Source: Candidatus Iainarchaeum sp. (GTDB lineage: Archaea > Iainarchaeota > Iainarchaeia > Iainarchaeales > GCA-2688035). From it: a DNA stretch of 24,049 nucleotides. The translations under genes were made by a program, and so were the position numbers. Shown here piece by piece: positions 1 through 17,799 of this stretch; position 1 is the first letter of the stretch, and the number at the start of each line of letters is the position of its first letter. Location of the stretch: the NCBI GenBank assembly GCA_017610205.1, contig JAFCCL010000013.1, forward strand, positions 1 through 24,049. Reading direction: 5' to 3'. The notes under the pieces are model-generated. The model was not told the DNA's origin and did not search any database. It worked only from the letters and a program-made list of their open reading frames with translations.

Positions 1-869
1 CAGAAAACACTGCAAGCCTAGTATTGCAAAACACATCAGGCGGAAAAATCACAATCAATTCCATCACATTTTCCGGAGACATAGGCGACACCCTAACAGG
101 CTACACACTAAACAGGCAAACAATAGACCCAACAACAGACTTCCCGCTCGAACTAACTCCAGGAACCGAAATCCTATTAGAAAATCTTGCAGTCCAAAAA
201 AACGGAGAAAACAGCAGCATATTCATAGAATACACTGATGCAACAGGCTTGGACAGAAAAACAGAAATCAAATCAGGAAACGGAGGGCCACCAGGACTGG
301 CAGCAGCATACTGGTTCAACGAAGGAAACGGAACACAAACAACAGACACAAGCGGAAACAAAAACACAGGAATCGGCTTTGACGGGACAGATTATGTTGA
401 TGTAACAAAAATAGGAGTCTGGAACAATCTCTTTGATGACGACAAAGATTTTACTATTACTGCATGGATAAAAGCTTATTCACTAACACACTCCAGCATT
501 GTTGGTCAAAGATATGGTGATTCAATGGTTTTTGGATTACGCAACACAGGAAAACTTTTCCTTAATATGGATGATACCAGAGCTAACAGCCCTGAAAGCA
601 CAAGTGCTCTTACCATAGATAATTGGCACCACATAGCAGTTACTTTTAGCGATTATAGAAACGCTAGTTTTTATATTAATGGGTCTTTTTCAGGTTCAGG
701 AATTGCCAATGACGAAATATCTCCACAAAACAATTTATTCATTGGATGGCAATCCAGATTTGACGTAGGATCTCCAACATATTTCAACGGCCAAATTGAC
801 TCAGTAAAAATCTACAACCGTGCATTAAGCGCAGCAGAAATACAAGCAGAATACAACAGAGGCAGTTAA
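1..869 (+). CDS. Pilin-like scaffold + LamG/concanavalin-A-like jelly-roll surface protein (5' end outside window)
   Basis: Frame is open from base 3 (ENTASLVLQNTSGG) and matches the paralog at 981 (ENTAGLVLQNITGG). LamG motifs: YWFNEGNG..TTDTSG, FTITAWIK, NWHHIAVTF, YING, FNGQIDSVKIYNRALSAAEI. Confidence 0.85.
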   Translation, partial: ENTASLVLQNTSGGKITINSITFSGDIGDTLTGYTLNRQTIDPTTDFPLELTPGTEILLENLAVQKNGENSSIFIEYTDATGLDRKTEIKSGNGGPPGLAAAYWFNEGNGTQTTDTSGNKNTGIGFDGTDYVDVTKIGVWNNLFDDDKDFTITAWIKAYSLTHSSIVGQRYGDSMVFGLRNTGKLFLNMDDTRANSPESTSALTIDNWHHIAVTFSDYRNASFYINGSFSGSGIANDEISPQNNLFIGWQSRFDVGSPTYFNGQIDSVKIYNRALSAAEIQAEYNRGS

Positions 870-2623: not shown

Positions 2624-2701
2624 CTCATGGACAACGCCAAAATCTACAACCGTGCACTCTCTGCAGCAGAAATACAGTCAGAATACAACAACAGCAAGTA
2701 A
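2624..2701 (+). pseudogene. Orphan 3' tail of a LamG adhesin gene
   Basis: Translates as LMDNAKIYNRALSAAEIQSEYNNSK*, close to the C-termini of 1-869 and 23425-24049; it abuts the IS fragment. Confidence 0.85.
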
Positions 2702-2795
2702 CAAAACCCCGGCACACTTTTTCCACATCCAAAAAAAAGGCAAAACCCTTCAAAAAGTATTAATTACACTTAAAACATACAATAATAGGTCAAAA

Positions 2796-3923
2796 ATGAA
2801 CCAAAAAGCACAAGCAGGATTAGAATACTTAATGACTTACGGCTGGGCGCTGGTAATGGTTTCTGCAATCATAGGCGCACTAATATTAATCACAACACAC
2901 ACAACCAACACAACCACCTTTTCAAGCTCAAACCCAACAAAAATCATGCTAAAAGGAAGCTCAATAACAGAAAACACTGCAGAACTTTTGTTGCAAAACA
3001 TAACAGGCGGAGCAATTAAGATTAATTCCGTTCACTTTTTTGGCGATTTGGAAACTGGCTCAGATTTTAAAGTTAATGGAGCCATACCTGCTTTTCCAAT
3101 TGACATTACAGCCGGCGGTGAAATGCATTTTGACGGACTTGCTTCGCAAAACAATTGCGGTTCCGGTGGCAGCATTTTTGTACTTTACTCCGATGCTTTT
3201 AATTTTGAAAGAACTGTTGAAATTAAGTGCAACGGCGGTGCAACATCCAGTGTTTTAAATGCTTGTGATTATACAACTTGGACACTTGGACAAGGAAGCG
3301 TTGGAGGATTTAGCAAAAATGGAACAGACACTGAAAATTGGAGAATTATGGGCGAAGACCCATGGGGCAAAACCACTATTGTCTGGGAAGCAAGGCCTGA
3401 CGATGCAGGTAATGCAAGCGGTGGATGGAACTACTATCTTCCAATTGATAACACCAAACTATACAGATTTTCTGTCTGGGTTAACAGAACAGTTTTGGGA
3501 GCTAATGGAAGGTTTTATTTTGGAACCACAGGCTATGGGGCGGTCTATGGCGTGACTAGATTATCTGATGAAACCATACAAACTAACCCCTATTTTTATA
3601 CTAGTTCATCTCCCCCTTCATCTACTCAACTGCCAGAGGGAGAATGGGTTTTGGTTGTAGGCCATGTTTTTCCGCATACTCATACAGAAAATTTAAATCA
3701 CCCTGATTCAGGAAGATATACACTAAGTGGGCGCTTGGGAAATATAGCTAACGACTACAAATGGCTGCCTGGAACCACAGGCAGCAGACACAGAACTTAT
3801 CTTTATTATGCCACAGACATTTCAGCAAGGCAGCAATGGGTTTATCCGCGAGTTGACGTGATAGATGGAACAGAGCCATCAATAAATGAATTATTAAATG
3901 GCTTTGATTCATTCATAACATGA
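2796..3923 (+). CDS. Class III signal peptide protein with the same scaffold as 981-2105 but a different (non-LamG) beta-rich C-terminal domain
   Basis: Start moved to ATG 2796 (MNQKAQAGLEYLMTYGWAL) by paralog alignment. The first ~150 aa are highly similar to 981-2105. The C-terminus has GGWN..IDNTKLYRFSVWV, NPYF, EWVLVVGHV, HRTYLYY, PRVDVIDGTEPSINELL. Confidence 0.85.
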   Translation: MNQKAQAGLEYLMTYGWALVMVSAIIGALILITTHTTNTTTFSSSNPTKIMLKGSSITENTAELLLQNITGGAIKINSVHFFGDLETGSDFKVNGAIPAFPIDITAGGEMHFDGLASQNNCGSGGSIFVLYSDAFNFERTVEIKCNGGATSSVLNACDYTTWTLGQGSVGGFSKNGTDTENWRIMGEDPWGKTTIVWEARPDDAGNASGGWNYYLPIDNTKLYRFSVWVNRTVLGANGRFYFGTTGYGAVYGVTRLSDETIQTNPYFYTSSSPPSSTQLPEGEWVLVVGHVFPHTHTENLNHPDSGRYTLSGRLGNIANDYKWLPGTTGSRHRTYLYYATDISARQQWVYPRVDVIDGTEPSINELLNGFDSFIT

Positions 3924-4279
3924 AAACATTTTTACATGCTGGTGTTATGCGCAAGCTATGGGCTCTGTTGAAATCATTTTTAAAACAAAATTTGAATGCC
4001 TTACCCAAATTGTTTGGCAAAAGCAAATACAGGTATATGGCATTAATGGAATCTATTAACTCATTCATCAAACCTATGCTTGGTAGCTATGCTTGGCTTT
4101 GGGCAGGCAGGCAATCGCCAAAAACAGGCAATAATTAAGGCAATTGCTTGCAATTTGGAGTTGGTTGGCTGAAGCATAAAATTGTGGTTTAGTTATAAAC
4201 TGCCAGGGATTTCTACTCTGCCAGGTTATCCAAAATCCTTAAATACTTCTTTCTGCCTTTTAATTCCTGAGGTCTTATA

Positions 4280-4831
4280 ATGGTTAATTGTAAAGGACAG
4301 GAGTCTGCCCCGTTTGAATTGCTTATTTCAGTAATTATAATGGGTTTTGTTATTTTTGTTGGTTTGATTGCAATGAACCAGTTGAATGAACAAAAATGCA
4401 TTAATGAAACAAGGGCAAAGCTTGAAGAAATGAAAACCAAAATTGAAACAGTTGTTGCTGAAAGAAGCCCGCAAAAAATAACATTTCTTCTAAACACCTG
4501 TTACAATCCCAAAGACGAAGATGTAAAAATACAGGACCATGGAGAACCTGCATTTTGTGCAGAATACTGCGGTGCAACCAAAAACCTTTGTACGCTTTTG
4601 CAGTATTATTACAGTGGAGTAAATGACACAGGCGGTCAATCTGAAAGGCTTTGCCTTAACATAAGTCCTGATGCCGATTTTCCAACAGCCGGTGGAAACT
4701 GCCCTGACAAAGAAGGCTACGAACTTGTTGACTTCAGGGACGAAATTGTACAGGGGCAATACCTTTTGGTTAACAAAACAGGCGTTACAAGCACATTTCC
4801 AACAGTATGCGCTTACCTAAAAACAAATTGA
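4280..4831 (+). CDS. Class III signal peptide (minor pilin-like) protein, Cys-rich
   Basis: KG/QESAPFELLISVIIMGFVIFVGLIAM followed by an amphipathic helix; multiple Cys in the extracellular part. Confidence 0.75.
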   Translation: MVNCKGQESAPFELLISVIIMGFVIFVGLIAMNQLNEQKCINETRAKLEEMKTKIETVVAERSPQKITFLLNTCYNPKDEDVKIQDHGEPAFCAEYCGATKNLCTLLQYYYSGVNDTGGQSERLCLNISPDADFPTAGGNCPDKEGYELVDFRDEIVQGQYLLVNKTGVTSTFPTVCAYLKTN

Positions 4832-4867
4832 TGTTTATGCTTTGTATGGTAGGGAGATTGATTAAAC

Positions 4868-5560
4868 ATGATGGGTTTTACTTTAAGTAAGCTAAATCTT
4901 TTGATTTTGGTAACTGTTTTGTTTTCAATAGTTTCCTTTTTCCTGTTTGCCCTTACAGGAATTGTTGTAGGAAACCTTGCCCAGCTTATGGTCAAGGACT
5001 ATTCCGAATCGGTTTTTGGGCTTGTTGGAGGAGGTGATGACAAGCTCTGCCACACAACAACTGTAACAATTCCTGAATCCCTTAAGTATTTTGGCGGAAT
5101 GACTCCAACCCAGTATTTTTTTTATGTAATGAACATAAAGCGTTTGCCAAAAGAATTTGAGGAAGGAAAGCTAAGCACTCTTATTTTTCAGATTGCAAGC
5201 AGAAAAGAGCCTGATAAAATAATTGCCACAAGTAGCATTGACATAAATGCAGAAATTATTTTCTATGACTGGGAAACAAAACCTGAAGACAGGCTTGTTG
5301 AAAAGGACTCAATAACCCTTGACCCAATGTCAATTGGAATTGCTCCAAAAAACAGCATGTATTTAATCAAAGAAGTTTACAACGGAAAAACATATCTTCA
5401 TGTAATTTCCTGCTCTTCATCTTCCAGCCAGTGTCTTGTAAACCTTGACAGAGCTTCCTGCTGGCTTTCAACCTGTGAAGATGCAGATGAACGGCGTGAA
5501 TCATCCTGCTTTCCAAAGCCGGAAGAGTGTGTTTCAAAAATAAACTGCGGAGTTGAATAA
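4868..5560 (+). CDS. Pilin-operon membrane-anchored protein with Cys-rich C-terminus
   Basis: N-terminal hydrophobic helix, GGAG-type RBS upstream, operonic with class III signal genes. Confidence 0.7.
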   Translation: MMGFTLSKLNLLILVTVLFSIVSFFLFALTGIVVGNLAQLMVKDYSESVFGLVGGGDDKLCHTTTVTIPESLKYFGGMTPTQYFFYVMNIKRLPKEFEEGKLSTLIFQIASRKEPDKIIATSSIDINAEIIFYDWETKPEDRLVEKDSITLDPMSIGIAPKNSMYLIKEVYNGKTYLHVISCSSSSSQCLVNLDRASCWLSTCEDADERRESSCFPKPEECVSKINCGVE

Positions 5561-6125
5561 ATTGAAGCCAAAGAATTTGCCAGGAATCAAAAGCTCGTTG
5601 CCTGATTCCAAAAGCTCAAAAGGTTTTCTTGGACCTATTGGAGACGATCTTCCATCTTTAATTCCTTTGATTTTTGCCCTGATGATGTTTTTTTACGTTT
5701 TTACTTTTACCTGGAATATTTTTGACCAACGAAGCATGGCTTTTGATGACGCAATTTCAGTTCTGCGGGTTGGAAACACTTTGAAAGGAGGCAATTATCT
5801 TAGAGGATTTAATATGTTCAACCAAAGGTGTGCAGAGGCTCAAAATATTAGGGGTGTAAAATTTATGGCAGGATTGCTTCCGCTTTCAACTGGCCCCGGC
5901 CAGGAATTTATTGGTCTTGATGTTGAAACCATTGAATCTGATTTTTTTATTGATGGTGGTGAAAAGTTTATCTGCAGCAATGTAAATCTTGGAGAAGAAA
6001 AACCAGGGCTTGAAAGCTCAAACCTTTTTATAAGATCTTTCCCTTTAGCTCTTGAATTTTCTAATACTAAAACAGGCACATTTTATGTAAGACCAATGCT
6101 TTTGGTGGTGGTAACATGGCATTAA
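5553..6125 (+). CDS. Putative class III signal/pilin-like protein
   Basis: SKG/FLGPIGDDLPSLIPLIFALMMFF hydrophobic helix; terminal beta-strand LLVVVTW; overlaps both neighbours. Confidence 0.7.
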   Translation: MNKLKPKNLPGIKSSLPDSKSSKGFLGPIGDDLPSLIPLIFALMMFFYVFTFTWNIFDQRSMAFDDAISVLRVGNTLKGGNYLRGFNMFNQRCAEAQNIRGVKFMAGLLPLSTGPGQEFIGLDVETIESDFFIDGGEKFICSNVNLGEEKPGLESSNLFIRSFPLALEFSNTKTGTFYVRPMLLVVVTWH

Positions 6126-6874
6126 AGCCAATTGCTTGCAACAGAATGCTAAAGCCATTAACTAATAAAAGTCAGCCAGGCTTTCTTAATTCAAAAGGTC
6201 AGGCGGCACTTACAGATGCGCTTTACTTTCTTCTCATAGTTTCAATAATCTGCACAATGCTGTTCTTTTATGCCTCAAATTATGGGCTAACGCTTCAGGA
6301 AAAAGTATCAAACCAGTACTGGAAAGAATATGCCACCGGAGCCCTTGAAACAATATTGTACTCAAGCACTCCAAGAATAGCGGGACATTCACTTGACAGT
6401 ACACCTGAAGTGGATTATTTGCTTGCAGCTGTTAAGGAAGACTTTGCAGAAAATGGAAAAATTGAGGAAACTGCTGAAGTGCTTAAGCAAAACATTAAGG
6501 GAATAATGCAGCCTATTGCCCCTGGTTTTGATTACATGTTTTACTTTTACCTCTTTGACGCAAAAGAATTCGCATTTGTAATGCTTTATACAAGGGATGC
6601 ACCAACACTTGGCGATGCAGGAATTGAACACGGTGATGCCAAAATATTTTTCTGCAATCCTCCATCCCTCAACACTCTTGAAAAGCTTGTGGAAGGAATA
6701 GGTGCAAGCGCTCCAAGCAATGCAAGGGTTCAGTTCATTGAAATCAGTGAAAGTGACATTCCTGGCTATCCTCCTGCAGAAGTAAACCTTACAATGTGGA
6801 TTCCAACCCCTCTTGATTCTGAATTGCTTGACGAACTCAATTGTGAATTAAATGAAACAATTCCATCTTCTTAA
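6116..6874 (+). CDS. Class III signal peptide (pilin-like) protein
   Basis: SKG/QAALTDALYFLLIVSIICTMLFF; last gene of the operon. Confidence 0.75.
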   Translation: MALKPIACNRMLKPLTNKSQPGFLNSKGQAALTDALYFLLIVSIICTMLFFYASNYGLTLQEKVSNQYWKEYATGALETILYSSTPRIAGHSLDSTPEVDYLLAAVKEDFAENGKIEETAEVLKQNIKGIMQPIAPGFDYMFYFYLFDAKEFAFVMLYTRDAPTLGDAGIEHGDAKIFFCNPPSLNTLEKLVEGIGASAPSNARVQFIEISESDIPGYPPAEVNLTMWIPTPLDSELLDELNCELNETIPSS

Positions 6875-8883: not shown

Positions 8884-8978
8884 AGTAAGATACCTGTTTG
8901 TTGCTTGTTTTTTGGTCCTGTAATTTTTTTATTGCTTTCTTATCAATATTTTTTTTGCATCTTTTTTAAACTTTGTTT

Positions 8979-8997
8979 CAATTTTCGGCAATTGCCT
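8979..8997. repeat. 19-bp exact direct repeat, copy 1 (contains GGCAATTGCC palindrome)
   Basis: caattttcggcaattgcct, identical at 9830-9848. Confidence 0.9.
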
Positions 8998-9096
8998 GCA
9001 TTTTGGCAAAAAAACCATTTCAGAAAATTCTTCGAAAACAAAGGCTTTTAACACCGTGCATAGTATATTATTAACATATTACTAAGGTGTTTTTTT

Positions 9097-9378
9097 GTGA
9101 AAATGTTGAGTGTTGAGGTTGGTGAAGATTATGCAAAGGCCATTGACAAGGCTATTGCTGCAAGCGGGCTTTACTCTTCCAGAAGCGAGTTTTTGAAGGA
9201 TTCTATTAGGAAAAACCTTGCTGATACCATTGAGCTTAGCTGGAGCCTGGAAAAGTTCAGGGAAGGGGCGAAAAAACTTGGTGCCAAAGCAAGGAAAAGA
9301 GGCTATGCTGGCGGCTTGCTTTCAAAGGAGGAAAAGGAAAAAATTGCTTTGGATTTTATAAAAAAGCACGGGCTTTAA
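9097..9378 (+). CDS. Ribbon-helix-helix (CopG/Arc/MetJ-like) protein, putative antitoxin
   Basis: MLSVEVGEDYAKAIDKAIAASGLYSSRSEFLKDSIR RHH pattern; start is GTG 9097 or ATG 9103. Confidence 0.85.
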   Translation: MKMLSVEVGEDYAKAIDKAIAASGLYSSRSEFLKDSIRKNLADTIELSWSLEKFREGAKKLGAKARKRGYAGGLLSKEEKEKIALDFIKKHGL

Positions 9379-9791
9379 TTGAAATCAGAGGGTTCAAACG
9401 ATTTTATTTCATTTTTGGCTTTTTCAAAGTCTTTAATGTTGAAGGTTACAATGCAATTGCATTTGAAGGCAATTGCTGTTGCCGCATGCAGTGCATCAGA
9501 ATAATGAATTCCTCTGGCAATAAACTTTTTCCAAGGCAAACCAGGCTTTATTCTTGCAGTTTCAAAATTGATATTCTGTTCTTTGAAATAAGCTGTGATT
9601 TCATCTTTGCTCAAATAGGTTTGTTTTTGAACCTCTTCAAAAAACAGGTCGGACAAAATAAGGAAATGTTTCTTTTGCTTTACTTGTTCAAAAAACCATT
9701 CTGCTTCAACAAACAATCCACACAGGTTTCTTCCAAGCTCTTTGCTAAACAAGGAAATAAAAACATTGGAATCCAGGTAAATTCTTTGCAT
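9375..9791 (-). CDS. vapC: PIN-domain (VapC-like) toxin
   Basis: IYLDSNVFI ... EE ... SDALHAATA ... IVTFNIKDF. Confidence 0.9.
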   Translation of the reverse strand: MQRIYLDSNVFISLFSKELGRNLCGLFVEAEWFFEQVKQKKHFLILSDLFFEEVQKQTYLSKDEITAYFKEQNINFETARIKPGLPWKKFIARGIHYSDALHAATAIAFKCNCIVTFNIKDFEKAKNEIKSFEPSDFN

Positions 9792-9829
9792 ATCAAATTC
9801 ATCAATTCTTCATTTAATAAACCATATTC

Positions 9830-9848
9830 CAATTTTCGGCAATTGCCT
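9830..9848. repeat. 19-bp exact direct repeat, copy 2
   Basis: caattttcggcaattgcct. Confidence 0.9.
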
Positions 9849-9869
9849 TTTTTTTGCAGGGTATGTAAG

Positions 9870-10502
9870 TCATTTCGAAATCTGATTTTTTGAGTTTTTC
9901 ACAATAGCCTTTTTAAGCGCTTTTCTTGCGCTGAATATTCTGCTTTGGGCAGTTCCGAGCGGAATTTTAAAATGCGCGGCTGTTTTGTTATAAGTTCTAG
10001 TCTTTCCGTTGTTAAGCCAGTATGAAAATATATCTTTTGTTTTTTGAGAAAGTTTTGTTTTATCCAAATACTGTTTTATTTTTTCCAATATTGCTTTTCT
10101 GTTTGTTTTTAAAATATTTTCTGCAGGGGTTAATTGTCTTCTGTCTCCGTATATTGATAAAAAATCTTCACAAACCTCCTCAAAGTGAAGGTTCTCCCTG
10201 TTTTTTTCAAACTTAAGGATGTCGCGCATATGCCTTTTTCCAATTTCAATGGCATAAAGTTTCTTTGATGCCATTCCAGGCTTCCACTTTTTGGAATTGG
10301 CGACAATTTTTATTACTGCTTGTTGAACCAGGTCTTCTTCAAGGGCTGGGTTTTTTGTTAGTGTTTTTGCCATCTTTTTTAAAATTTCAAGCGAAGGTTC
10401 TACAAATTCCCTGTATCGTTTTTCGGCAATTTTTTTTATTGGCCATCTTTCAACTACTTTTTTTTGCAACGGTCCCCGTGTTGATACTGTTCTTTTCAGC
10501 AT
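9870..10502 (-). CDS. ECF-type sigma70-like protein (regions 2 and 4) with basic N-terminal extension
   Basis: Region 2: LKKMAKTLTKNPALEEDLVQQAVIKIV...WKP..SKKLYAIEIGKRHMRDILK. Region 4 HTH: LSQKTKDIF...TYNKTAAHFKIPLGTAQSRIFSARKALKK. 210 aa, with no region 3. Confidence 0.85.
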   Translation of the reverse strand: MLKRTVSTRGPLQKKVVERWPIKKIAEKRYREFVEPSLEILKKMAKTLTKNPALEEDLVQQAVIKIVANSKKWKPGMASKKLYAIEIGKRHMRDILKFEKNRENLHFEEVCEDFLSIYGDRRQLTPAENILKTNRKAILEKIKQYLDKTKLSQKTKDIFSYWLNNGKTRTYNKTAAHFKIPLGTAQSRIFSARKALKKAIVKNSKNQISK

Positions 10503-10526
10503 AAAATAGTTTAATATTGTTTTTCC

Positions 10527-10541
10527 TTAATAAACTTTGCC
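10527..10541 (-). promoter_or_regulatory. Archaeal BRE/TATA promoter of the sigma-like gene
   Basis: Minus strand ggcaaag-TTTATTAA lies 25-32 bp upstream of the ATG, consistent with a leaderless transcript. Confidence 0.6.
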
Positions 10542-10632
10542 AAAGTTTTTCATTTTTTTTATTTCATTCTCTTTCCTTTTTTGTTATTCCATTTCCTTTA
10601 AATTCTTTTAGTTAACTAATTAATTGTAGGAA

Positions 10633-10980
10633 GTGGCAAATTTTGCTTTTTTTTTGCAGGAGTTTGCCTTTTTCCGGTGGTGGAAAATTTTGTCCTTGCC
10701 TTTTAGTGAAAAAAATGTTCTTTTGAACGAAGTAATTTTGGGAAAGCTGTCTCCTTTGCAGAAGAAAATTCTTATTGAATTGGGTACAGGCCCACAAACT
10801 CTTGATGTTTTAAGCAGCAAAACAGGCTCAAGTGTTTACACCATTGGAAAGCAGTTAAGCCTTTTGCAGATGAGGGCAAGTTACAATCCCCTGCATGGAA
10901 AGGGAATTTCAAAGCCTTTGGTAAAAAAGCAAAAGGGTGTTGGAATTAAGACAACCTACTTTCTTGCACAGGGCTTGTAG
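10633..10980 (+). CDS. Small winged-HTH DNA-binding protein (true start probably near TTG 10723)
   Basis: LSPLQKKILIELGTGPQTLDVLSSKTGSSVYTIGKQLSLL...LVKK...TTYFL. Confidence 0.7.
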   Translation: MANFAFFLQEFAFFRWWKILSLPFSEKNVLLNEVILGKLSPLQKKILIELGTGPQTLDVLSSKTGSSVYTIGKQLSLLQMRASYNPLHGKGISKPLVKKQKGVGIKTTYFLAQGL

Positions 10981-11006
10981 ATATTGCAATATCGGAATTA
11001 AAGATT

Positions 11007-11165
11007 TTAAACTGTAAAGATTTTTTTATTCCTTTGAATGATTTTAATAAATTCTTTGTCGGCATTCGTAAGTCTGGGATTTTTATCCTTAAATCGCATA
11101 GACTCTACAAAGCTTACGGCTTTTTCTCCTATTAATGCTGGTGTTGCCCTAATTGGTTTAGCCAT
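11007..11165 (-). CDS. 52-aa protein not in the ORF track; resembles small antitoxin-like partners of GNAT genes
   Basis: Hand translation MAKPIRATPALIGEKAVSFVESMRFKDKNPRLTNADKEFIKIIQRNKKIFTV*; GGAGTG RBS upstream. Confidence 0.7.
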   Translation of the reverse strand: MAKPIRATPALIGEKAVSFVESMRFKDKNPRLTNADKEFIKIIQRNKKIFTV

Positions 11166-11382
11166 CTTTTCCACACTCCAATTTACTAAATAAATTATCC
11201 TATCAACATTTTTTTAAATTGAAAGTTTATTCTCATATATACACCTTCCTTTATGTATAAGTTAAGTAGTTTTTGGCTTTATTTTATGTACAAAAACATG
11301 TGGTTTTAGGCAAATTGCCTGTTTGCTGTGCACTTATTTTTAACCAAAAGCCTAAAATATGAAAAGCATTCATAATTCTTTC

Positions 11383-12162
11383 ATGCCTCCAAAGAAACCA
11401 AGTAAACCAGTGGCAAAGGCAAGAAAGCCCAAGTTCAAAAGCAAAAGGACAAAGTGTGAAAAGCGAAAAATTGTTAGAAGACTTGCAAGGGAAGCAAAGC
11501 CTGGGAAAAAACCATTGGCTGAACCCTTAACCATTGCCCCTGCTGCTGAAAGGAATGCCGCTTTTAAGAAAGGCAAAATGGTTTTTTATGATGGCAGGAA
11601 AAAGCTTTCTATTCCGATTCACTCCTCTGCTAAATTTTTAGGTTGCGCTCACACTTTGCACCTAGCAGGTGTTTACAAGATAGCTGGTAATTCTGCAGGC
11701 AATAAGTACGTTGGATTGTTTTTCACTACTATTGCTTCTTATCAGCAAATTAATATTCATTTGCTTGTTGAAAAAAGCAATGGGGTTTTGGAGCCAGGAA
11801 AGTATTTGGGTTATGCTGCTGCTGAGCATGACCTTGGGCATATGGAAGTCCGTCAGGACTTTAAGCGTAGGGGTCTTGCTTTAAAGGCTGCTCTAAGGGG
11901 TGAAAGACATGTTAGGTCCACGAGAAAAGGAAAGCATTTGTTTAAACTTCGTGCAGTACACGCTGGCTTTGAAGAAATTATTAAAAAGCTAGACTATCGT
12001 GTGTTAGACCTGTATTCTAGTCCTTACAATGAAAGGGTTTTGATTATGCAAAAGAATGGCAAGCACCAGCCAAAAGACAATTTGAATGAATTTGTTCGAA
12101 TTGAGGCAATTGACCCAAAGACTGGAAAGGAAAGAATGTTTAGTTTTAAGATTGGGGGATGA
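11383..12162 (+). CDS. Highly basic hypothetical protein with K/P-rich N-terminal tail and GNAT-like motif A
   Basis: Start moved to ATG 11383 (MPPKKPSKP), which has caaaag-CCTAAAATA ~25-30 bp upstream. LGHMEVRQDFKRRGLALKA resembles the acetyl-CoA-binding motif. Confidence 0.7.
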   Translation: MPPKKPSKPVAKARKPKFKSKRTKCEKRKIVRRLAREAKPGKKPLAEPLTIAPAAERNAAFKKGKMVFYDGRKKLSIPIHSSAKFLGCAHTLHLAGVYKIAGNSAGNKYVGLFFTTIASYQQINIHLLVEKSNGVLEPGKYLGYAAAEHDLGHMEVRQDFKRRGLALKAALRGERHVRSTRKGKHLFKLRAVHAGFEEIIKKLDYRVLDLYSSPYNERVLIMQKNGKHQPKDNLNEFVRIEAIDPKTGKERMFSFKIGG

Positions 12163-12167
12163 ATGGA

Positions 12168-12430
12168 TTTTTTTGAGTTTCTTTTCCCAATTGAAAAATG
12201 AATGATTTGAATGGATTATTTTTTTTTACTTTTATTTTTTGAATTTTTTTTTGTTTTGATTTTTTGGGAATGATTGAATTTTTGTTTTTTTTATTTTTTT
12301 TTTTATTTTTTTTTTGAGTTTTTTTTTGAATTTTTTTTTATTTTTTTTGTTTTTTTTATTTTTTTTGGCGAGTTTAATTAATAGATATATAATTATTGAA
12401 TAATATATAATATTGAATAATATATAATAA
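12168..12430. other. Poly-T low-complexity tract followed by a 17-bp AT-rich tandem repeat
   Basis: 12215-12366 is dominated by T runs with almost no C; tattgaataatatataa occurs twice, at 12394-12427. Confidence 0.85.
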
Positions 12431-12478
12431 TGAAATGAAAAGAAGGTTTTTATACCAGTTTTGCTTTCTATATATATT

Positions 12479-13021
12479 ATGCCTTTGGAATTTATTACTG
12501 GAGTAGTCCTTGGTTTGATTGATTTAATCAGGATTTCAATTATTGTGGCAATTCCTGCTTTTTTTGTTGTTCTTGTGGCGCAAAAGCTTAATGAACGGAT
12601 TCAAAAGGCCTTTAAGCTAAGCTGGATTGTGTCAGCTTTTGCCACGAGTTTTATTGTTTTGCTTCCGATTGTTTTTTTGGCTTATTTGATTCCCTATGCT
12701 TTGGGTTATTTTGCAAGCCCTTTTCCAGGAATGACCTTTCCTGATTTTATGCAGCTTACTGTAATTGATTATGCAATGGCTGTAATTTTGACAATTATAA
12801 AAAATGTAATTACTGCGTTTATTTTTGCCGTGCTGTTAATGCCGTTGCTTTTCTTTGCCTCTTTTGTGCAAGAAAAATTTTTGGAAAAAACAAAGTTGCC
12901 GAAGTTTGCAAACTTGTTTGTTGCAACGTTCATTACTGCTTTTGCTGCCTGGATAATAATTCTTTTCATTTTTCCGTGGATTTATGCAGGAATTTTTGAA
13001 CTCTTATGGTGGGGTTTATGA
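12479..13021 (+). CDS. Multi-pass integral membrane protein, coupled to the giant surface protein
   Basis: About 4-5 hydrophobic helices; gaagg-TTTTTATA promoter ~27 bp upstream of ATG 12479; stop overlaps the next ATG (ATGA). Confidence 0.85.
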   Translation: MPLEFITGVVLGLIDLIRISIIVAIPAFFVVLVAQKLNERIQKAFKLSWIVSAFATSFIVLLPIVFLAYLIPYALGYFASPFPGMTFPDFMQLTVIDYAMAVILTIIKNVITAFIFAVLLMPLLFFASFVQEKFLEKTKLPKFANLFVATFITAFAAWIIILFIFPWIYAGIFELLWWGL

Positions 13022-16000
13022 AATCAGATTCACAAAAATTTTTGTGCCTTCTTTTGGTTGCGTTAATGATAAACCTTACAATAAGCCCTGCTTTTGGAGA
13101 AGAGCTTCCTGCAACAGTGCCATCTGCTGAAGACTCTGGAGCAGATTTTGCTCTCTCGGAAGTAATTGACAATCCTATAGAGGTTGAATTTGCCTGCTTT
13201 TCTCCTGAAAACGAAAGATATCCTGGAGAAAACACTTTGCTTCCAAACGAGATTGCAGCGCTTAAAAGAAAAACAGAGGCTGAAAATCCTGGTTTTAGTG
13301 TTGACAATGTAAACAGTGGCAGGGGCAGTAATGAGGACCGGGACCAGCTTAAAAATGATATAATTGTACAGGAATCAGAGGACGGTGTTGGCGTTGTAAA
13401 TGAGATTCCTTCCGGAAAAATTGATGTTGGTGAAATTTCGCCGCTGTTTAACAAATGGTTTTTGGGTCCTTTTTCTTTTGGAGTAAGCCTTGATGACACA
13501 ATAAGGCTTGGGCAATGCAGGGATTTGCCAAGGCTTGAGGCAGAGGAACGAGGCTGTCCTTTGACTGATGTCCAGCTTTCTTACAGAAACAGCGGTGACG
13601 GAATTGTTAATAATGTTAAAACAGTTTGGGATGATTTCAAGGACTGGGTAACTCCTGATGCAATTTTTGAGGGAAATACAGGCCAGTATACTGAAGAACA
13701 GCTTGAAAACATTCAGCTTAATATTTCTGCAACCACTGATTCTGAATTGCTTGAGGCAAAATATGTTCAAAAAGAAGTTAAGCAAATTCCAAACAGCGTG
13801 CTTACAGAAGAAGTTGGAGCAAGCATGAAGACTGCTGGTGATTCTTCTGAAAGCCTGATAAGCATTTACAGCATGTTTGACAAATACTACAACAGCTGGT
13901 TTTCAACCGAAATGGTTGTTTCAACCTTTGGCCCGACCCTTTTTGGAACTGCAAAAAAGTATGCCGGCTGGTTAAAGCGCAGGGGGCTTGCCTGGGACAC
14001 TACTGACAACAGGCTAATGCAATGGTTTAGAAGAACCTTTTATGACCCAGGCGGGCTTTTTGGAGAGGCAAGGCTTAAAAGAATGGTTACAAGAACGGAC
14101 AAATACGGTTTTGGAGATGCCTGGACAAAGGGAATTGAGGCAACAGGAGACTGGGATTCAGGTTATGCTTTTATGAAAGGCGGAAGCTTTAGGAAATCGA
14201 TAAACGACTGGTCAAAACCAGGCGGTTACCTTGACGAAATGACTGACCCTCTTCAAAGAGGCGAATTTTTTAAGCAAATAAGGGACTTAAGGGCTTATGC
14301 TCATACAAACAGGGCAATTTGGTCAGAGAAAAAAGGCATTTATGACGCTGCTGTAAAGGCTGCTGGTGAAGCAGGAGCAAACAGCCCGCAGGCAAAAGCT
14401 GCTCTTATGGATTGGGCGCAAACAAATGCAGACCTTATGCTAAAGGCAGACGGTACCTGGCTAAGGCTTGATGCAACAGAGCTTTGGATTAAGGAAGAAG
14501 TTACAGGTCTTTACAACAAGGGAATAAAATTAAAGGGAACTAACAACTTTCTTGCTCTTGCAGGAGACAGCAAGCCGCCTGCCAAAGTACAGCAGGGGTT
14601 TATTCAAACAGTTACCAACGGTTCTGGACCTTATGGCCCAAAATGGGGAGATGATGCATTTGAATTTACAACCAAAGACGGCATGCTTGAAATATTTAAA
14701 ATTGACAAAACCGGTGAATTGATTGACGAGGTTCCTGTAGAGGATTTGCGCAAGGGCTTTTCAAGATATGTTAAAAAGGCAGCAAAAACAGACAAAGGCG
14801 AGTATGTTGAAATTAGTGAGGCAACAATTCCCTATATTGCAAAAGAGTCTCCTACTGGCAAAGTAGGAATTTACACTTCAAACTGGAAGCTTGACCATCT
14901 TGAAACTCCTGAATTGTATGCAAAAAGGCTGACTGACTTAAGGTCTGACAGGGCTATGAATGTAATGTCAAAAAATATGGACAGGCTTTACAATACCCTT
15001 ATTGAAAAGAATTTTGCAGGGCAAAGCAGAAGATATTACAGCTGGCTTGACAAGGCATTTTCCCACGAGCAAGAATTGCTTAAAAGTTATTTGGGAAGCT
15101 TTAAGGGAGCAGCAGAGTGGACTGCAAAGCCATTCCTTTACTGGGGTGGCAAAAGGGCTTTTGGCTTTGAAGGAATGTCTGCATTTATGCTTCCTGACGA
15201 ATGGAAAGAAGTTGAGCTTTATACAGATGACGAAACAATTTTTGACGACGCATATATTGATGTGTTTGCACAGCATGGAAGCGACGAAGGCGAAATATTT
15301 GTACAGGTTTTGAATTATTTGCCGTGGAAAGCTGTGTTAAATTATGTAAGTGAAAAGTTTGCTCCAAACTCTGTTGACAAAGCATATGACGAGTGGACAA
15401 GTCCTTCTGGTGGATGGAGAAGGGGCGTTGAAAACATTGCATATTTTACTTCAACAAGGGATGATTGTGCAACATGCGAACTTACTCTTTCTCCAATAGT
15501 TCTTTCACAGGAAGAGATTTCTGATTTGGAAAACAAGGGAAGGGGAAGGGCAGTAATTGCCTTTAATGTAGAACAGGATATGAAATCATATTTTGTTGAA
15601 GACATTCTTGACAAGGATGTTGGAGAAGACGGAACAACACTTATTGCATTCGGGCACCATACAAACATAAGCGGAGAATCCATGCAAAGTGCAGGGCAGG
15701 ATGCAAGCGACATAGACCTTGTTCTGGCAAGAAAGGACAATGAAACCTGTTCAGATGCAGTAAAAGACCTTGGCCTTGGATTTTTGGGAGACGACCCTCA
15801 AAGAGTTGGGGCATTGCTTGCTGTCAGTGAAAGCGGCCTATATTTTGTTTTTACAGGAATTGGCCTTGTTGGTTCTGCTCTTCAGCAAACTCTTTTGGCT
15901 CCAAGGCTGCAGGATTGTGTTGACGACCTTGAAGGCTACTACCTTCACATGTATTCGCCGTATGATGAAGCAAAGGAAGGAACCTTGACCCCGAATGAAA

Positions 16001-17799
16001 ACGCAAGCAAGAATGCAGGTGACATAATTCAAAATATTAACAATCTTGTAAAAGGCGGAAACACTGCGCCTGAAAAAGAAAAAGATGATGATAACAAGCC
16101 TCTTGTTGATGAAAAAGGACAGCCTTATACTGCGCCAACAAGTTCTGAAAATGATGACAAGATTGTTTATAATAGAACTCTGGAAGGGGATAAAACCGAA
16201 AGTAAAAATTTAGTTGAACTGGCAATGGAAAAAATTACTGGCCAAGCTGAAATACTAAGCCAAAGGACAGAGTCTGCTGCACTGCTTCAGATTGATGTTA
16301 AAACAAAAGGCGAAACCATTGGTCTTGCATTTTTTGAAAAAATGTTTTTCTTTTGGTATAACGGTAATACATTGCCAGCAGTTTATGACACTGTTAGCAG
16401 GACAGTGCTTGAAGACAATGACAAGGATGTTTCAGTAATTATTGACAAGAAAGACGGAACAATTTCTGTAAAAGAAGAAGGAAAGCCTGCTGAAGAAATT
16501 ATTTCAAGCGAAGACAATGTAAGGCTGTCTACAGAAAACCTTGCTGTTCCTGCAGAAGTAATACCTCAAAGAATTGGCCGGGTTGTTTTGCCAACCGGTT
16601 CTCCAATTGAATTGTTTGAGTTGAATTGGCAAGGCAACTTTAAGGTTTTAGACCAAAGTACTTTGGATTGCATCAGGCAAAATGTTTTGGAGCAAACAGG
16701 AGTTCCATTAACAACCAGGGATATTACTGAAGCCTTTGGAGAGGCTAAAGCAATTAAAACAGACCGTTATCCAAGCATTACTGCAAGCGCAAGCCAGCAA
16801 AGCATTATTGCAAACGGAAGCCCTCGTGAAATAGTTTATGGTCCATCAGCGCGTGTTGTAGTAATGACTGACATGAACACAACTCTTTTGAATGGAAGGG
16901 CAATTCCTGCAGGAGACTTTATTTCAGTGGCGTTTAAGAACGGTGTAATTGTTTACAAGCCTGCTTCCGGAGGAAATCCGGCAGAGCTTTTGATTTGGCT
17001 AAGTTACCATGAAAGAACAATTTTGAGGCCAAGCCAGGTAAAGGGCTTAAAGGCAACACTTGACAGTGTAACAAATGCTGAAACAGGGTGCCCTGAACCT
17101 GCAATAAACCTTGAGGCAATTCCAAACCTTGATGCAGGTGAAAGAAGCCAGATAACTGAAAGGGTTGAAAATTTCAACCAGGCAATAGAAAAAATGGGAC
17201 CGTTCCAGATATTTGACACTGACAGGCACAGGTTTGTCTTTTACAGCGAAAAAACAAGCCCTGGCTGCGACCCGCAGGATGAAGGCTGCTGCCAGGACAG
17301 GGTTTCAATAATTAACAAGGAAACAGGCGAGGTTTATGACCAGGCAATTGTCGGAGGGGTAAAGCAGACTCCTGAAGGAATAGAGTTTACAACAGAGGAC
17401 GGAAAGAACCACACTCTTGACTTTTCTGCAGACAACGGAGTTCCAAAAATAAGCTACAATAATATGGCTCCTGAAACTCTTACAATGGCAAGGGGTCCAA
17501 ACGGTGCCTTTTGGTATGATCCTGATGATGAGCTTTGGAGGCCTTACAATGCACAGCTTTTGCCATTGCTTGAGGCTTTTAAGACAAACGGAATGGACAT
17601 TAGGGAAAGGGCAGATGGCAGTGTAAACGGGATGCCTGGCGGAAATACAATGAATGTTAATGTCGGTGGCTCTGCTGAATCGCCTTTTAATTTGCCAAGC
17701 CTTCCTTTGGCGCCAATTGAAATGCTGCTCTTTATACTAACCCTAATGGCAGTAATTTGTGTTGCAAGAATTGGCATTGAAAAAAGGCTCAGTGGGTGA
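13018..17799 (+). CDS. Giant (~1593 aa) secreted, C-terminally anchored surface protein of unknown function
   Basis: ATG 13018 (ATGA overlap); Sec-type signal MKSDSQKFLCLLLVALMINLTISPAFG; C-terminal TM MLLFILTLMAVICVA plus a basic tail. Confidence 0.9.
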   Translation: MKSDSQKFLCLLLVALMINLTISPAFGEELPATVPSAEDSGADFALSEVIDNPIEVEFACFSPENERYPGENTLLPNEIAALKRKTEAENPGFSVDNVNSGRGSNEDRDQLKNDIIVQESEDGVGVVNEIPSGKIDVGEISPLFNKWFLGPFSFGVSLDDTIRLGQCRDLPRLEAEERGCPLTDVQLSYRNSGDGIVNNVKTVWDDFKDWVTPDAIFEGNTGQYTEEQLENIQLNISATTDSELLEAKYVQKEVKQIPNSVLTEEVGASMKTAGDSSESLISIYSMFDKYYNSWFSTEMVVSTFGPTLFGTAKKYAGWLKRRGLAWDTTDNRLMQWFRRTFYDPGGLFGEARLKRMVTRTDKYGFGDAWTKGIEATGDWDSGYAFMKGGSFRKSINDWSKPGGYLDEMTDPLQRGEFFKQIRDLRAYAHTNRAIWSEKKGIYDAAVKAAGEAGANSPQAKAALMDWAQTNADLMLKADGTWLRLDATELWIKEEVTGLYNKGIKLKGTNNFLALAGDSKPPAKVQQGFIQTVTNGSGPYGPKWGDDAFEFTTKDGMLEIFKIDKTGELIDEVPVEDLRKGFSRYVKKAAKTDKGEYVEISEATIPYIAKESPTGKVGIYTSNWKLDHLETPELYAKRLTDLRSDRAMNVMSKNMDRLYNTLIEKNFAGQSRRYYSWLDKAFSHEQELLKSYLGSFKGAAEWTAKPFLYWGGKRAFGFEGMSAFMLPDEWKEVELYTDDETIFDDAYIDVFAQHGSDEGEIFVQVLNYLPWKAVLNYVSEKFAPNSVDKAYDEWTSPSGGWRRGVENIAYFTSTRDDCATCELTLSPIVLSQEEISDLENKGRGRAVIAFNVEQDMKSYFVEDILDKDVGEDGTTLIAFGHHTNISGESMQSAGQDASDIDLVLARKDNETCSDAVKDLGLGFLGDDPQRVGALLAVSESGLYFVFTGIGLVGSALQQTLLAPRLQDCVDDLEGYYLHMYSPYDEAKEGTLTPNENASKNAGDIIQNINNLVKGGNTAPEKEKDDDNKPLVDEKGQPYTAPTSSENDDKIVYNRTLEGDKTESKNLVELAMEKITGQAEILSQRTESAALLQIDVKTKGETIGLAFFEKMFFFWYNGNTLPAVYDTVSRTVLEDNDKDVSVIIDKKDGTISVKEEGKPAEEIISSEDNVRLSTENLAVPAEVIPQRIGRVVLPTGSPIELFELNWQGNFKVLDQSTLDCIRQNVLEQTGVPLTTRDITEAFGEAKAIKTDRYPSITASASQQSIIANGSPREIVYGPSARVVVMTDMNTTLLNGRAIPAGDFISVAFKNGVIVYKPASGGNPAELLIWLSYHERTILRPSQVKGLKATLDSVTNAETGCPEPAINLEAIPNLDAGERSQITERVENFNQAIEKMGPFQIFDTDRHRFVFYSEKTSPGCDPQDEGCCQDRVSIINKETGEVYDQAIVGGVKQTPEGIEFTTEDGKNHTLDFSADNGVPKISYNNMAPETLTMARGPNGAFWYDPDDELWRPYNAQLLPLLEAFKTNGMDIRERADGSVNGMPGGNTMNVNVGGSAESPFNLPSLPLAPIEMLLFILTLMAVICVARIGIEKRLSG

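What the first reader, a model, noticed from the sequence alone, without database searches (positions are those of the whole stretch)
9870..10541. Intact bacterial-type ECF sigma70-like gene in an archaeal genome under an archaeal promoter
Seen: region 2 (EDLVQ core-binding motif) and region 4 (IPLGTAQSRIFSARKAL) are both present with ECF-like spacing. The gene has a BRE/TATA at -25 to -32, Lys-rich composition like its neighbours, an added basic N-terminal tail and no adjacent anti-sigma. Known: archaeal RNA polymerase initiates with TBP/TFB and does not use sigma factors. Inference: the protein is either repurposed as a DNA-binding regulator or acts on a bacterial RNA polymerase. The latter would make it an effector delivered to a bacterial host or prey, which is unexpected for DPANN symbionts.
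Basis: partly seen in the sequence, partly recalled or inferred. Interest (0 to 1): 0.9.

Follow-up and report, generated by a model that had tools for sequence, protein, structure and literature searches.

The report
Sigma-factor-like gene in a DPANN archaeon
A small symbiont-type archaeon carries an intact, natively expressed-looking copy of a bacterial-style sigma factor gene, one of a family already reported in such archaea, and what it does in a cell that has no bacterial RNA polymerase is still unknown.

Summary
Window 9870-10502 (minus strand) is an intact 210-aa ORF with the two-domain ECF sigma-70 layout. It matches TIGR02937 at E 7e-10 over nearly the whole profile. Sigma70_r2 just passes Pfam's cut-off and region 4 falls below it. 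The AF2 model has pLDDT 87, and all the best PDB fold matches are ECF sigmas.

The genome is archaeal, DPANN, of the Iainarchaeota/Diapherotrites type. It has TBP, one archaeal RNAP A' gene and no bacterial alpha-CTD. The gene is native: tetranucleotide and codon usage are typical, and a BRE/TATA sits at the genome's canonical leaderless distance and is conserved in a congener's syntenic ortholog. dN/dS is about 0.4. There are three to four further sigma-like paralogs on other contigs, one on the same contig as TBP.

The gene belongs to a well-supported, fast-evolving, patchy clade: 16 of 215 genomes of the phylum. TIGR02937-like genes occur in 98 of 215, and 40 of 215 are above the cut-off.

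Sigma-70 genes in DPANN, with no anti-sigma and an unclear mechanism, were already published (Castelle 2021).

The likeliest role is an intracellular DNA-binding transcription regulator. The effector idea has no support: there is no signal peptide and no evidence of export. The binding test on the archaeal clamp gave no verdict.

The parts
9870..10502 (-). CDS of the 210-aa ECF-type sigma-70-family protein (stop codon included)
   Evidence: ORF. TIGR02937 E 7e-10. phrog_1740 'RNA polymerase sigma factor' E 2.4e-11. Clade profile against PDB: Mtb SigH 5zx2_F, E 5.6e-8. AF2 pLDDT 87.3. All ten Foldseek hits with E<=0.001 are sigma factors, nine of them ECF sigmas.
10428..10502 (-). Basic N-terminal extension (residues 1-25), ending in the clade motif RWP..K
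   Evidence: 8 K/R against 1 D/E. The motif is conserved in clade alignment A2. Residues 11-30 are modelled with pLDDT 87-98.
10212..10391 (-). Sigma region 2 (residues 38-97), including EDLVQ (56-60)
   Evidence: Pfam Sigma70_r2 at 24.3 bits and 26.4 bits in the six-frame genome search. D57 and Q60 align with near-invariant D and Q of the canonical-ECF-like set. The near-invariant W is Y83 here.
9909..10055 (-). Sigma region 4 HTH (residues 150-198), including GTAQSRI
   Evidence: Pfam Sigma70_r4 at 17.8 bits, below the cut-off. Y171, G183, T184, S187 and R188 align with the invariant or near-invariant positions of the ECF-like set.
10527..10541 (-). BRE/TATA-like promoter element (TTTATTAA at -32..-25, A-rich BRE at -36..-33) for a leaderless mRNA
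   Evidence: It matches the genome-wide motif and its position. The block 10521-10549 is conserved in the ortholog's upstream region in G004.
10576..10640 (.). About 65-nt intergenic block, nearly identical in the G004 ortholog locus. It holds the 12-nt palindrome TTAGTTAACTAA (10608-10619) and a TATA-like TTTAAATT (10597-10604) facing the divergent wHTH gene.
   Evidence: Alignment A6 and sequence. Its role as an operator or promoter is inferred.
10633..10980 (+). Divergently transcribed small winged-HTH-like ORF (115 aa), syntenic with the sigma-like gene in G000 and G004
   Evidence: ORF. No Pfam or PHROG hit. Ortholog is 70% identical, dN/dS 0.25. The HTH nature is judged by eye from the sequence, not by a tool.
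9375..9791 (-). PIN-domain gene 78 nt downstream on the same strand. It is a neighbour and is not shown to be functionally linked.
   Evidence: Pfam PIN E 8.5e-6. Syntenic in G004.

Best explanation
This is a native chromosomal gene of a DPANN archaeon of the Iainarchaeota/Diapherotrites type. It encodes a divergent two-domain (sigma2 + sigma4) ECF-type member of the sigma-70 family.

Shown:
- The gene is intact.
- It is transcribed from an ordinary archaeal BRE/TATA promoter as a probably leaderless mRNA.
- It is under purifying but relaxed selection.
- It belongs to a lineage-specific clade that has duplicated within these archaea. This genome holds three ECF-like paralogs, a group-3-like one and a split one.
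- The clade is patchy and sits in variable regions next to toxin-antitoxin, transposase-like or restriction-like genes.

Inferred: the cell has only an archaeal RNA polymerase with TBP and TFB. I therefore think the protein most likely acts inside the archaeon as a sequence-specific transcription regulator. It would bind DNA with its well-preserved region-4.2 helix-turn-helix, and possibly with region 2, at or near TBP/TFB promoters. In that reading it is a bacterial-type transcription factor like most archaeal regulators, not a classical initiation factor. Its target genes are unknown.
For: Identity:
- TIGR02937 E 7e-10; Sigma70_r2 above the cut-off.
- Clade profile against a canonical ECF-like profile: hhalign 99.8%, E 8.3e-30, 168 columns.
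- PDB sequence hits are ECF sigmas SigH, SigE, SigL and SigW.
- AF2 pLDDT 87.3 with two helical domains. The ten Foldseek hits with E<=0.001 are all sigma factors, nine of them ECF sigmas.

Archaeal host:
- Two TBP genes, a single RNAP large-subunit domain in an 870-aa A' gene, and no bacterial alpha-CTD.
- Most of the 80 nearest A' relatives are titled Candidatus Iainarchaeum, Diapherotrites or simply archaeon.
- The contig itself carries a CTP-dependent riboflavin kinase, PAC2 and HVO_A0114.

Native, not chimeric:
- Contig tetranucleotide correlation with the rest of the genome is r=0.994.
- Codon-usage score is at the 43.6th percentile and GC3 is typical.
- Paralogs lie on the 122-kb contig C10, which also holds TBP, and on the 126-kb contig C17.
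- The syntenic ortholog in G004 is 47% identical.
- Single-contig genomes G038 and G179 have TIGR02937 matches above the cut-off.

Promoter. The BRE/TATA block is conserved in G004 although the coding region is only 64.5% nt-identical.

Selection: dN 0.40, dS 0.94.

Clade:
- 16 rows with SH-aLRT 98. The three own ECF-like paralogs fall in three subclades, each with orthologs elsewhere.
- 16 of 215 genomes of the phylum match at E<=1e-5.

DNA-binding helix kept: Y171, G183, T184, S187 and R188 match the invariant or near-invariant positions of the ECF-like set. Overall 7 of 9 such positions are kept.

No export signal.
Against: - No call tests DNA binding, targets or expression.
- If only an HTH were needed, nothing explains why the region-2 helix with D57 and Q60 is also kept in this subclade. 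I recall this helix as the core-RNAP-binding helix. That fits a role in contact with a polymerase clamp at least as well.
- Region 4 and TIGR02937 score below their curated cut-offs.
- The near-invariant region-2 Trp is Tyr here.
- In the other subclade the Q is replaced by A, N or S.
- The gene evolves faster than its neighbours: dN/dS is 0.42 against 0.09-0.25. It is absent from most relatives, so its function is dispensable or strain-specific.
Confidence: 0.55

Rival explanations
1. It is a true sigma-style factor for the archaeal polymerase. Region 2 would dock on the A' clamp coiled-coil, which is the homologue of the bacterial beta' clamp helices and the site used by TFE and Spt5. The protein would redirect or modulate initiation at a dedicated promoter set.
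For: - Both sigma domains and the linker are kept with ECF spacing.
- D57 and Q60 of the region-2 helix are kept in this subclade.
- The A' coiled-coil stretch (residues about 223-270) is almost invariant in 32 Iainarchaeota-type sequences.
- Several paralogs per genome resemble a bacterial alternative-sigma repertoire.
- In G005 a clade member lies 12 nt downstream of TFB on the same strand.
Against: - No archaeal RNAP is known to use sigma (textbook knowledge; stated also in the passage of PMC8204110 read).
- The TFB adjacency was seen in 1 genome only among the loci held.
- The Q of the region-2 helix is lost in the other subclade, and the Trp of region 2.3 is replaced.
Confidence: 0.15
2. 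It is an accessory regulator belonging to a mobile element, provirus or defence/TA island. It would control that element's genes rather than host housekeeping genes. It would still work inside the archaeon.
For: - The gene is flanked by two PIN/antitoxin modules.
- Paralog C17_202 lies next to a 307-aa ORF that looks transposase-like to me (not tested with a family search).
- In G005 the clade member occupies a slot downstream of TFB. In this genome homology ends exactly at the TFB stop and that slot holds different genes.
- Distribution is patchy and evolution is fast.
- The best library match is a PHROG sigma family. The nearest Atlas feature clusters are viral ECF-like sigma clusters at 0.97, which is a lead only.
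- A 2025 paper reports rpoS-like genes in DPANN viruses and in one prophage (PMC12647753, passage read).
Against: - None of 10 unexplained window ORFs has a PHROG hit at E<=0.001.
- No tRNA gene that might mark an integration site is in the window.
- No close relative was found in IMG/VR by pattern scan.
- In GenBank phages the only hits are 5 Bacteroides phage records at 28% identity.
- The C17_226 type keeps its place next to IMP dehydrogenase in three genomes from two genera (G000 and G006 of one, G007 of another), which looks chromosomal and vertical.
Confidence: 0.2
3. It is an effector delivered to a bacterial host or prey, where it binds bacterial core RNA polymerase and reprograms or blocks transcription.
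For: The hallmark residues of a bacterial ECF sigma are largely kept: 7 of 9 near-invariant positions. The basic N-terminal tail has no assigned role.
Against: - There is no signal peptide or membrane segment.
- No secretion genes are nearby.
- Several paralogs per genome, and a promoter like that of ordinary genes, give no hint of export.
- As I recall, known DPANN hosts are archaea; this was not tested here.
Confidence: 0.03
4. It is an artefact or relic: bacterial or phage DNA mis-binned or chimerically assembled into an archaeal MAG, or a decaying horizontally transferred gene with no function.
For: - The contig is short (24 kb) and comes from a MAG of 24 contigs.
- Scores against the curated sigma models are marginal.
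- One paralog (C16) is split by a stop, and so is one copy in G007.
Against: - Archaeal genes lie on the same contig.
- Composition and codon usage are typical.
- The archaeal promoter is conserved in an ortholog from another genome.
- dN/dS is below 1.
- Paralogs lie on large contigs that carry TBP.
- Related genes occur in single-contig genomes.
- Mis-binning was ruled out independently for DPANN sigma genes by Castelle 2021.
Confidence: 0.03

Closest known systems
Bacterial extracytoplasmic-function (group 4) sigma-70 factors, e.g. M. tuberculosis SigH/SigE/SigL, E. coli sigmaE, P. aeruginosa AlgU
   Same: The architecture is the same two-domain sigma2-linker-sigma4 layout of about 200 aa with no regions 1.1 or 3. 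These are the best sequence and fold matches in the PDB. The region-2 D..Q helix and the region-4.2 GT..SR helix are kept.
   Different: - The host has no bacterial core RNAP.
- Scores against TIGR02937 and Sigma70_r4 are below the curated cut-offs.
- The near-invariant Trp is Tyr.
- There is an added basic N-terminal tail with a clade-specific RWP/AE.RY..FVEP motif.
- No anti-sigma was found.
- The promoter is an archaeal BRE/TATA.
Sigma-70 genes of DPANN archaea reported by Castelle et al. 2021 (fam00359, 'particularly prevalent in Woesearchaeota')
   Same: The phenomenon is the same: sigma-70-family genes in DPANN genomes, not mis-binned, with no anti-sigma, alongside TBP, TFB and TFE, and with an unclear mechanism.
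   Different: This genome is of the Iainarchaeota/Diapherotrites type. The word Diapherotrites does not occur in that paper's main text. Whether this clade is part of fam00359 could not be checked because Supplementary Table 3 is closed. The clade structure, promoter, selection and synteny data given here are not in the passages I read.
Phage-encoded divergent ECF-like sigma factors (PHROG 1740; rpoS-like genes in DPANN viruses, PMC12647753)
   Same: This is the best single library score: phrog_1740, E 2.4e-11, residues 15-206. The nearest Atlas feature clusters are viral.
   Different: No phage context is present in the window. Identity to any GenBank phage protein is only 28%. No IMG/VR relative was found by pattern scan.

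Membership tests
Sigma-70 family, ECF / group 4 | Sigma region 2 domain recognised by the curated model (Pfam PF04542 at or above its gathering score) | tested here: met
   24.3 bits against a cut-off of 24, residues 38-97, and 26.4 bits in the genome search. The margin is small.
Sigma-70 family, ECF / group 4 | Sigma region 4 HTH recognised by the curated models (PF04545 or PF08281 at or above the gathering score) | tested here: not met
   PF04545 scores 17.8 against 24.1 and PF08281 scores 12.3 against 25.7. The region still aligns column for column with ECF region 4.2 in profile-profile and PDB comparisons.
Sigma-70 family, ECF / group 4 | Full-length match to the NCBIfam superfamily model TIGR02937 above its cut-off | tested here: not met
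   38.8 bits against a cut-off of 42.9, E 7e-10, covering profile positions 4-164 of 165. The ortholog in G004 (46.9 bits) and the clade member in G005 (43.4 bits) do pass.
Sigma-70 family, ECF / group 4 | Two-domain fold (sigma2 + sigma4 only) like solved ECF sigmas | tested here: met
   AF2 model with pLDDT 87.3: helices 23-119, a low-confidence linker at 120-125, and helices 126-209. All ten Foldseek PDB hits with E<=0.001 are sigma factors, nine of them ECF sigmas. TM-scores are low (0.26-0.33) because the domain orientation differs.
Sigma-70 family, ECF / group 4 | Binds bacterial core RNA polymerase and directs promoter-specific initiation | not testable with these tools
   The genome has no bacterial-type RNAP: one archaeal A' gene and no alpha-CTD. 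The one complex job, against the archaeal clamp, gave no verdict.
Sigma-70 family, ECF / group 4 | Cognate anti-sigma factor, usually co-transcribed (common in ECF groups but not universal) | tested here: not met
   The neighbours are a PIN gene and an unassigned wHTH-like ORF. No zf-HC2 was found in the genome. Other anti-sigma families were not searched.
DPANN sigma-70-like genes (Castelle 2021) | Sigma-70-family gene on a contig with archaeal, taxonomically informative genes in a DPANN genome | tested here: met
   Archaeal genes lie on the same contig. TBP and a sigma-like paralog share contig C10. A' relatives are titled Iainarchaeum or Diapherotrites.

The most novel reading that the evidence does not exclude
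These DPANN proteins are working sigma-type factors for an archaeal RNA polymerase. Region 2 docks on the A' clamp coiled-coil and region 4 reads a promoter element. Some archaea would then run a sigma-style alternative-regulon switch on top of TBP/TFB. That would be a hybrid of the bacterial and archaeal initiation systems.
Probability: 0.12. Interest if true: 0.9.

Novelty: new member of a known kind. Interest (0 to 1): 0.45.

Why it matters
Sigma factors are the defining initiation factors of bacteria, and archaea are thought to do without them. A conserved, duplicated and natively promoted sigma-like family in DPANN archaea bears on two questions. One is how a bacterial initiation factor is re-used after transfer across domains. 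The other is whether the universally conserved polymerase clamp can still accept it.

This gene offers a compact, intact test case with a syntenic ortholog, a defined promoter and three ECF-like paralogs. The phenomenon itself is already in print, and nothing here shows an unusual mechanism. Its value is as a well-characterised candidate for biochemistry, not as a discovery.

Tried and rejected
- Complex prediction of the sigma2 part (residues 1-125, alignment A4) with the A' clamp coiled-coil fragment (residues 190-300, alignment A5): no verdict, score 0.00 in two runs, controls not run. This is no evidence either way.
- Sequencing runs holding window 9300-11200: none was listed and no RNA holder was listed.
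- The word-index homologue search found only the protein itself among 195 candidates. The exhaustive HMMER search was needed.
- The search for related loci in genome contigs and in viral contigs with the protein found no relatives. The same was true for the 302-aa paralog in viral contigs.
- Mis-binning or chimera: rejected (see the rivals).
- 'HTH-only regulator mis-called as sigma': rejected, because region 2 is also matched.
- 'Sigma-like protein as the antitoxin of the downstream PIN gene': considered. The sigma-PIN adjacency is seen only in G000 and G004, and G004 has a separate small ORF between them that looks like an RHH antitoxin by eye. I dropped the idea.
- TFB-sigma operon as a general rule: seen only in G005 among the loci held. 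In this genome the TFB gene has different downstream genes.
- I could not test whether the clade occurs outside this phylum, for example in Woesearchaeales. The genome search was run only within the window's own phylum, and the metagenome representatives carry no taxonomy.
- The unlabelled hits P0013-P0062 are called 'canonical-ECF-like' from their motifs only. Their bacterial origin was not checked.
- Rows left out of the tree: P0001 (the query itself), P0005 and P0007 (fragments), P0014 (internal duplication), and P0018, P0037 and P0048 (long multidomain proteins). Most TIGR02937 matches were never fetched; 20 regions were fetched.
- Supplements of PMC8204110 and PMC12647753 were not seen.
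Full report
**What is there**

Window 9870-10502 (minus strand) is an intact 210-aa ORF. Pfam finds Sigma70_r2 at residues 38-97 (24.3 bits, cut-off 24). It finds Sigma70_r4 at residues 150-198 (17.8 bits, below the 24.1 cut-off). NCBIfam's ECF superfamily model TIGR02937 aligns residues 31-199 to profile positions 4-164 of 165. The E-value is 7e-10 and the score 38.8 bits, just under the 42.9 cut-off. The best library score is PHROG 1740, 'RNA polymerase sigma factor', at E 2.4e-11.

A profile of the protein's own clade (A2, 12 rows) hits M. tuberculosis SigH (5zx2_F) over positions 24-198 at E 5.6e-8. It then hits SigE, SigL and SigW. An AF2 model built on a 55-row alignment has mean pLDDT 87.3. 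It shows two helical domains joined by a low-confidence linker at residues 120-125. All ten Foldseek PDB matches with E<=0.001 are sigma factors, nine of them ECF sigmas. TM-scores are low (0.26-0.33) because the relative domain orientation differs.

**The host is an archaeon of the DPANN type and the gene is native**

- The window is the whole of contig C11 of a 1.37-Mb, 24-contig genome estimated 92.3% complete and 0.62% contaminated.
- The genome has two TBP genes and one RNAP large-subunit match in an 870-aa A' gene. It has no bacterial alpha C-terminal domain.
- The 80 closest A' genes in the species-representative collection are 59-92% identical. Most are titled Candidatus Iainarchaeum, Diapherotrites, Forterrea or simply archaeon. 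A few records carry bacterial or Thaumarchaeota labels.
- On the contig itself lie a CTP-dependent riboflavin kinase, a PAC2 protein and an HVO_A0114-type HTH. I recall these as typically archaeal.
- The contig's tetranucleotide profile correlates at r=0.994 with the rest of the genome.
- The gene's codon-usage score is at the 43.6th percentile of 940 ORFs, and its GC3 is typical.

**Promoter**

I took 732 ORFs with a free upstream region. They show an A-rich then T/A-rich signal at -37..-25 and a G-rich signal at -12..-8. An iterated 14-nt motif, GAAAAGCTTTAAAA, has its best matches starting mostly at -40..-37. That is an archaeal BRE/TATA at the distance expected for leaderless mRNAs.

The sigma-like gene has GGCAAAGTTTATTA starting at -39, with a score of 8.4. 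Scores above 8 in that window occur in 18.4% of real upstreams and 1.1% of shuffled ones. Two paralogs have similar matches: 9.6 at -36 and 9.4 at -41.

In the ortholog locus of a congener (G004), the block around this BRE/TATA (window 10521-10549) is conserved. So is a roughly 65-nt block (10576-10640) next to the divergent gene. The coding sequence, by contrast, is only 64.5% identical at the nucleotide level.

**Family and evolution**

The genome holds several further sigma-like genes:
- Two ECF-like paralogs on contig C17: 202 aa at 31% identity, and 226 aa.
- A 302-aa group-3-like protein on C10, the contig that also carries a TBP gene. It scores 69 bits against FliA/WhiG and 66 bits against TIGR02937, above the cut-off.
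- A copy on C16 split by a stop codon.

The exhaustive HMMER search of 1.84 billion representatives found only 62 proteins at E<=1e-3 and 11 at E<=1e-10. The top eleven share a basic N-terminus and the motif AE.RY..FVEP. The remainder look like canonical ECF sigmas, but their taxonomy is unknown.

In a tree of 86 rows, the window protein sits in a clade of 16 rows with SH-aLRT 98. Seven rows come from genomes of this phylum and nine are metagenome representatives, three of which are identical to genome ORFs. The three own ECF-like paralogs fall in three subclades, each with orthologs in other genomes. The duplications are therefore older than these genera.

Distribution is patchy:
- With the protein as query: 6 of 22 other genomes of the same family and 0 of 18 genomes from other families of the order.
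- With the clade profile: 16 of 215 genomes of the phylum and 10 of 79 genera.
- With TIGR02937 at E<=1e-5: 98 of 215 genomes, with 40 of 215 above the curated cut-off. These include the single-contig genomes G038 and G179.

Many of the weaker TIGR02937 hits cover only the HTH end of the profile. The same search also rings below the cut-off in 3 archaeal control genomes. The figure of 40 is therefore the safer count.

Against the G004 ortholog the protein is 46.8% identical, with dN 0.40 and dS 0.94. The syntenic neighbours are better conserved: wHTH 70% (dN/dS 0.25), PIN 80% (0.21) and RHH 91% (0.09). The gene is constrained but fast-evolving.

**Context**

The gene is flanked by toxin-antitoxin genes and a divergent small winged-HTH-like ORF. 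That module is shared with G004. Other clade members sit elsewhere:
- Next to TFB in G005.
- Next to IMP dehydrogenase in G000, G006 and G007.
- Next to what looks like a fibrillarin gene, judged by eye, in G023.

In this genome, homology to G005 ends exactly at the TFB stop and different genes follow. No phage signature was found in the window.

**Function**

Nine positions are invariant or near-invariant in 36 canonical-ECF-like sequences. The window protein keeps seven of them: D57, Q60, Y171, G183, T184, S187 and R188. It changes two, A to E55 and W to Y83 (I mapped these by hand from the printed alignment). I recall the D..Q helix as the core-binding helix and GT..SR as the -35 recognition helix. 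No call tested these roles.

The protein has no hydrophobic segment, with a maximum 19-aa hydropathy of 0.38. Because the cell has only an archaeal polymerase, I favour an intracellular DNA-binding regulator (0.55). The rivals are:
- An accessory or mobile-element regulator (0.2), which overlaps with the favoured reading.
- A true sigma-type partner of the archaeal clamp (0.15).
- An effector (0.03).
- An artefact or relic (0.03).

**Prior knowledge**

Castelle et al. 2021 (PMC8204110; passages read) state several points about DPANN genomes. They encode sigma-70 genes, 'particularly prevalent in Woesearchaeota'. Mis-binning was ruled out and no anti-sigma factors were found. The mechanism is unclear given TBP, TFB and TFE. 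A 2025 paper (PMC12647753; passage read) reports rpoS-like genes in DPANN viruses.

Searches for a functional study of sigma in archaea found none. The terms used were 'sigma factor' + 'archaeal RNA polymerase' + DPANN; sigma-70 + Woesearchaeota; sigma + Diapherotrites/Iainarchaeota; and ECF + archaea. I looked only at the listings for these.

**Verdict**

The feature is real and native. It is a new member, and probably a distinct Iainarchaeota clade, of an already reported kind. The effector interpretation is unsupported and the function remains open.

Noticed in passing
window 8962-9005 and 9813-9856: A 44-nt repeat (80% identical) contains the perfect palindrome GGCAATTGCC. It lies about 100 nt upstream of the RHH gene (9097, +) and about 47 nt upstream of the PIN gene start (9791, -). 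There are 7 matches with at most 1 mismatch in the window against 1.5 expected. It may be a shared operator of the convergent RHH/PIN pair.
   Followed up: partly
window 10576-10640: The intergenic block between the sigma-like gene and the divergent wHTH ORF is almost identical in G004. It holds the 12-nt palindrome TTAGTTAACTAA and is more conserved than either coding region.
   Followed up: partly
window 13006-17799: A 1597-aa ORF has no Pfam or PHROG match. It is preceded by an extremely T-rich low-complexity stretch at about 12220-12360, in a 1-kb window (12001-13000) of GC 0.29.
   Followed up: no
window 2652-6874: Five same-strand ORFs (423, 183, 230, 190 and 252 aa) have no Pfam or PHROG match. 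Laminin_G_3 (concanavalin-like) proteins lie at both ends of the contig.
   Followed up: no
L138 (G000:C16:113800-116800) 875-1462 and 1481-1801: A fifth sigma-like gene of this genome is split into 195-aa and 106-aa ORFs by a TAA stop. It lies beside an ORF that looks like an MCM helicase C-terminus by eye; this was not tested.
   Followed up: partly
L102 (G005:C12) 565-2115: A TFB gene is followed after 12 nt, on the same strand, by a member of the sigma-like clade. In the window's own genome the TFB gene is 98% identical in protein, but homology stops at its stop codon and other genes follow.
   Followed up: partly
L101 (G007:C4) 89-1470: Tandem sigma-like genes: one is split into 164-aa and 79-aa ORFs and is followed by an intact 211-aa paralog. 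They lie next to IMP dehydrogenase, as does the C17_226 paralog of this genome.
   Followed up: no
L019, L023, L043, L022, L086 (genome contigs): Records titled Chloroflexota or Chloroflexi bacterium, Candidatus Falkowbacteria and Thaumarchaeota carry an archaeal RNAP A' gene 60-92% identical to this genome's. The public labels of these MAGs look wrong.
   Followed up: no
window 3-869: The Laminin_G_3 protein at the contig start also gives a weak, sub-threshold match to the clostridial neurotoxin receptor-binding N-domain family (E 4.5e-4, 20.4 bits against a 23.8 cut-off). This probably reflects only the shared concanavalin-like fold.
   Followed up: no
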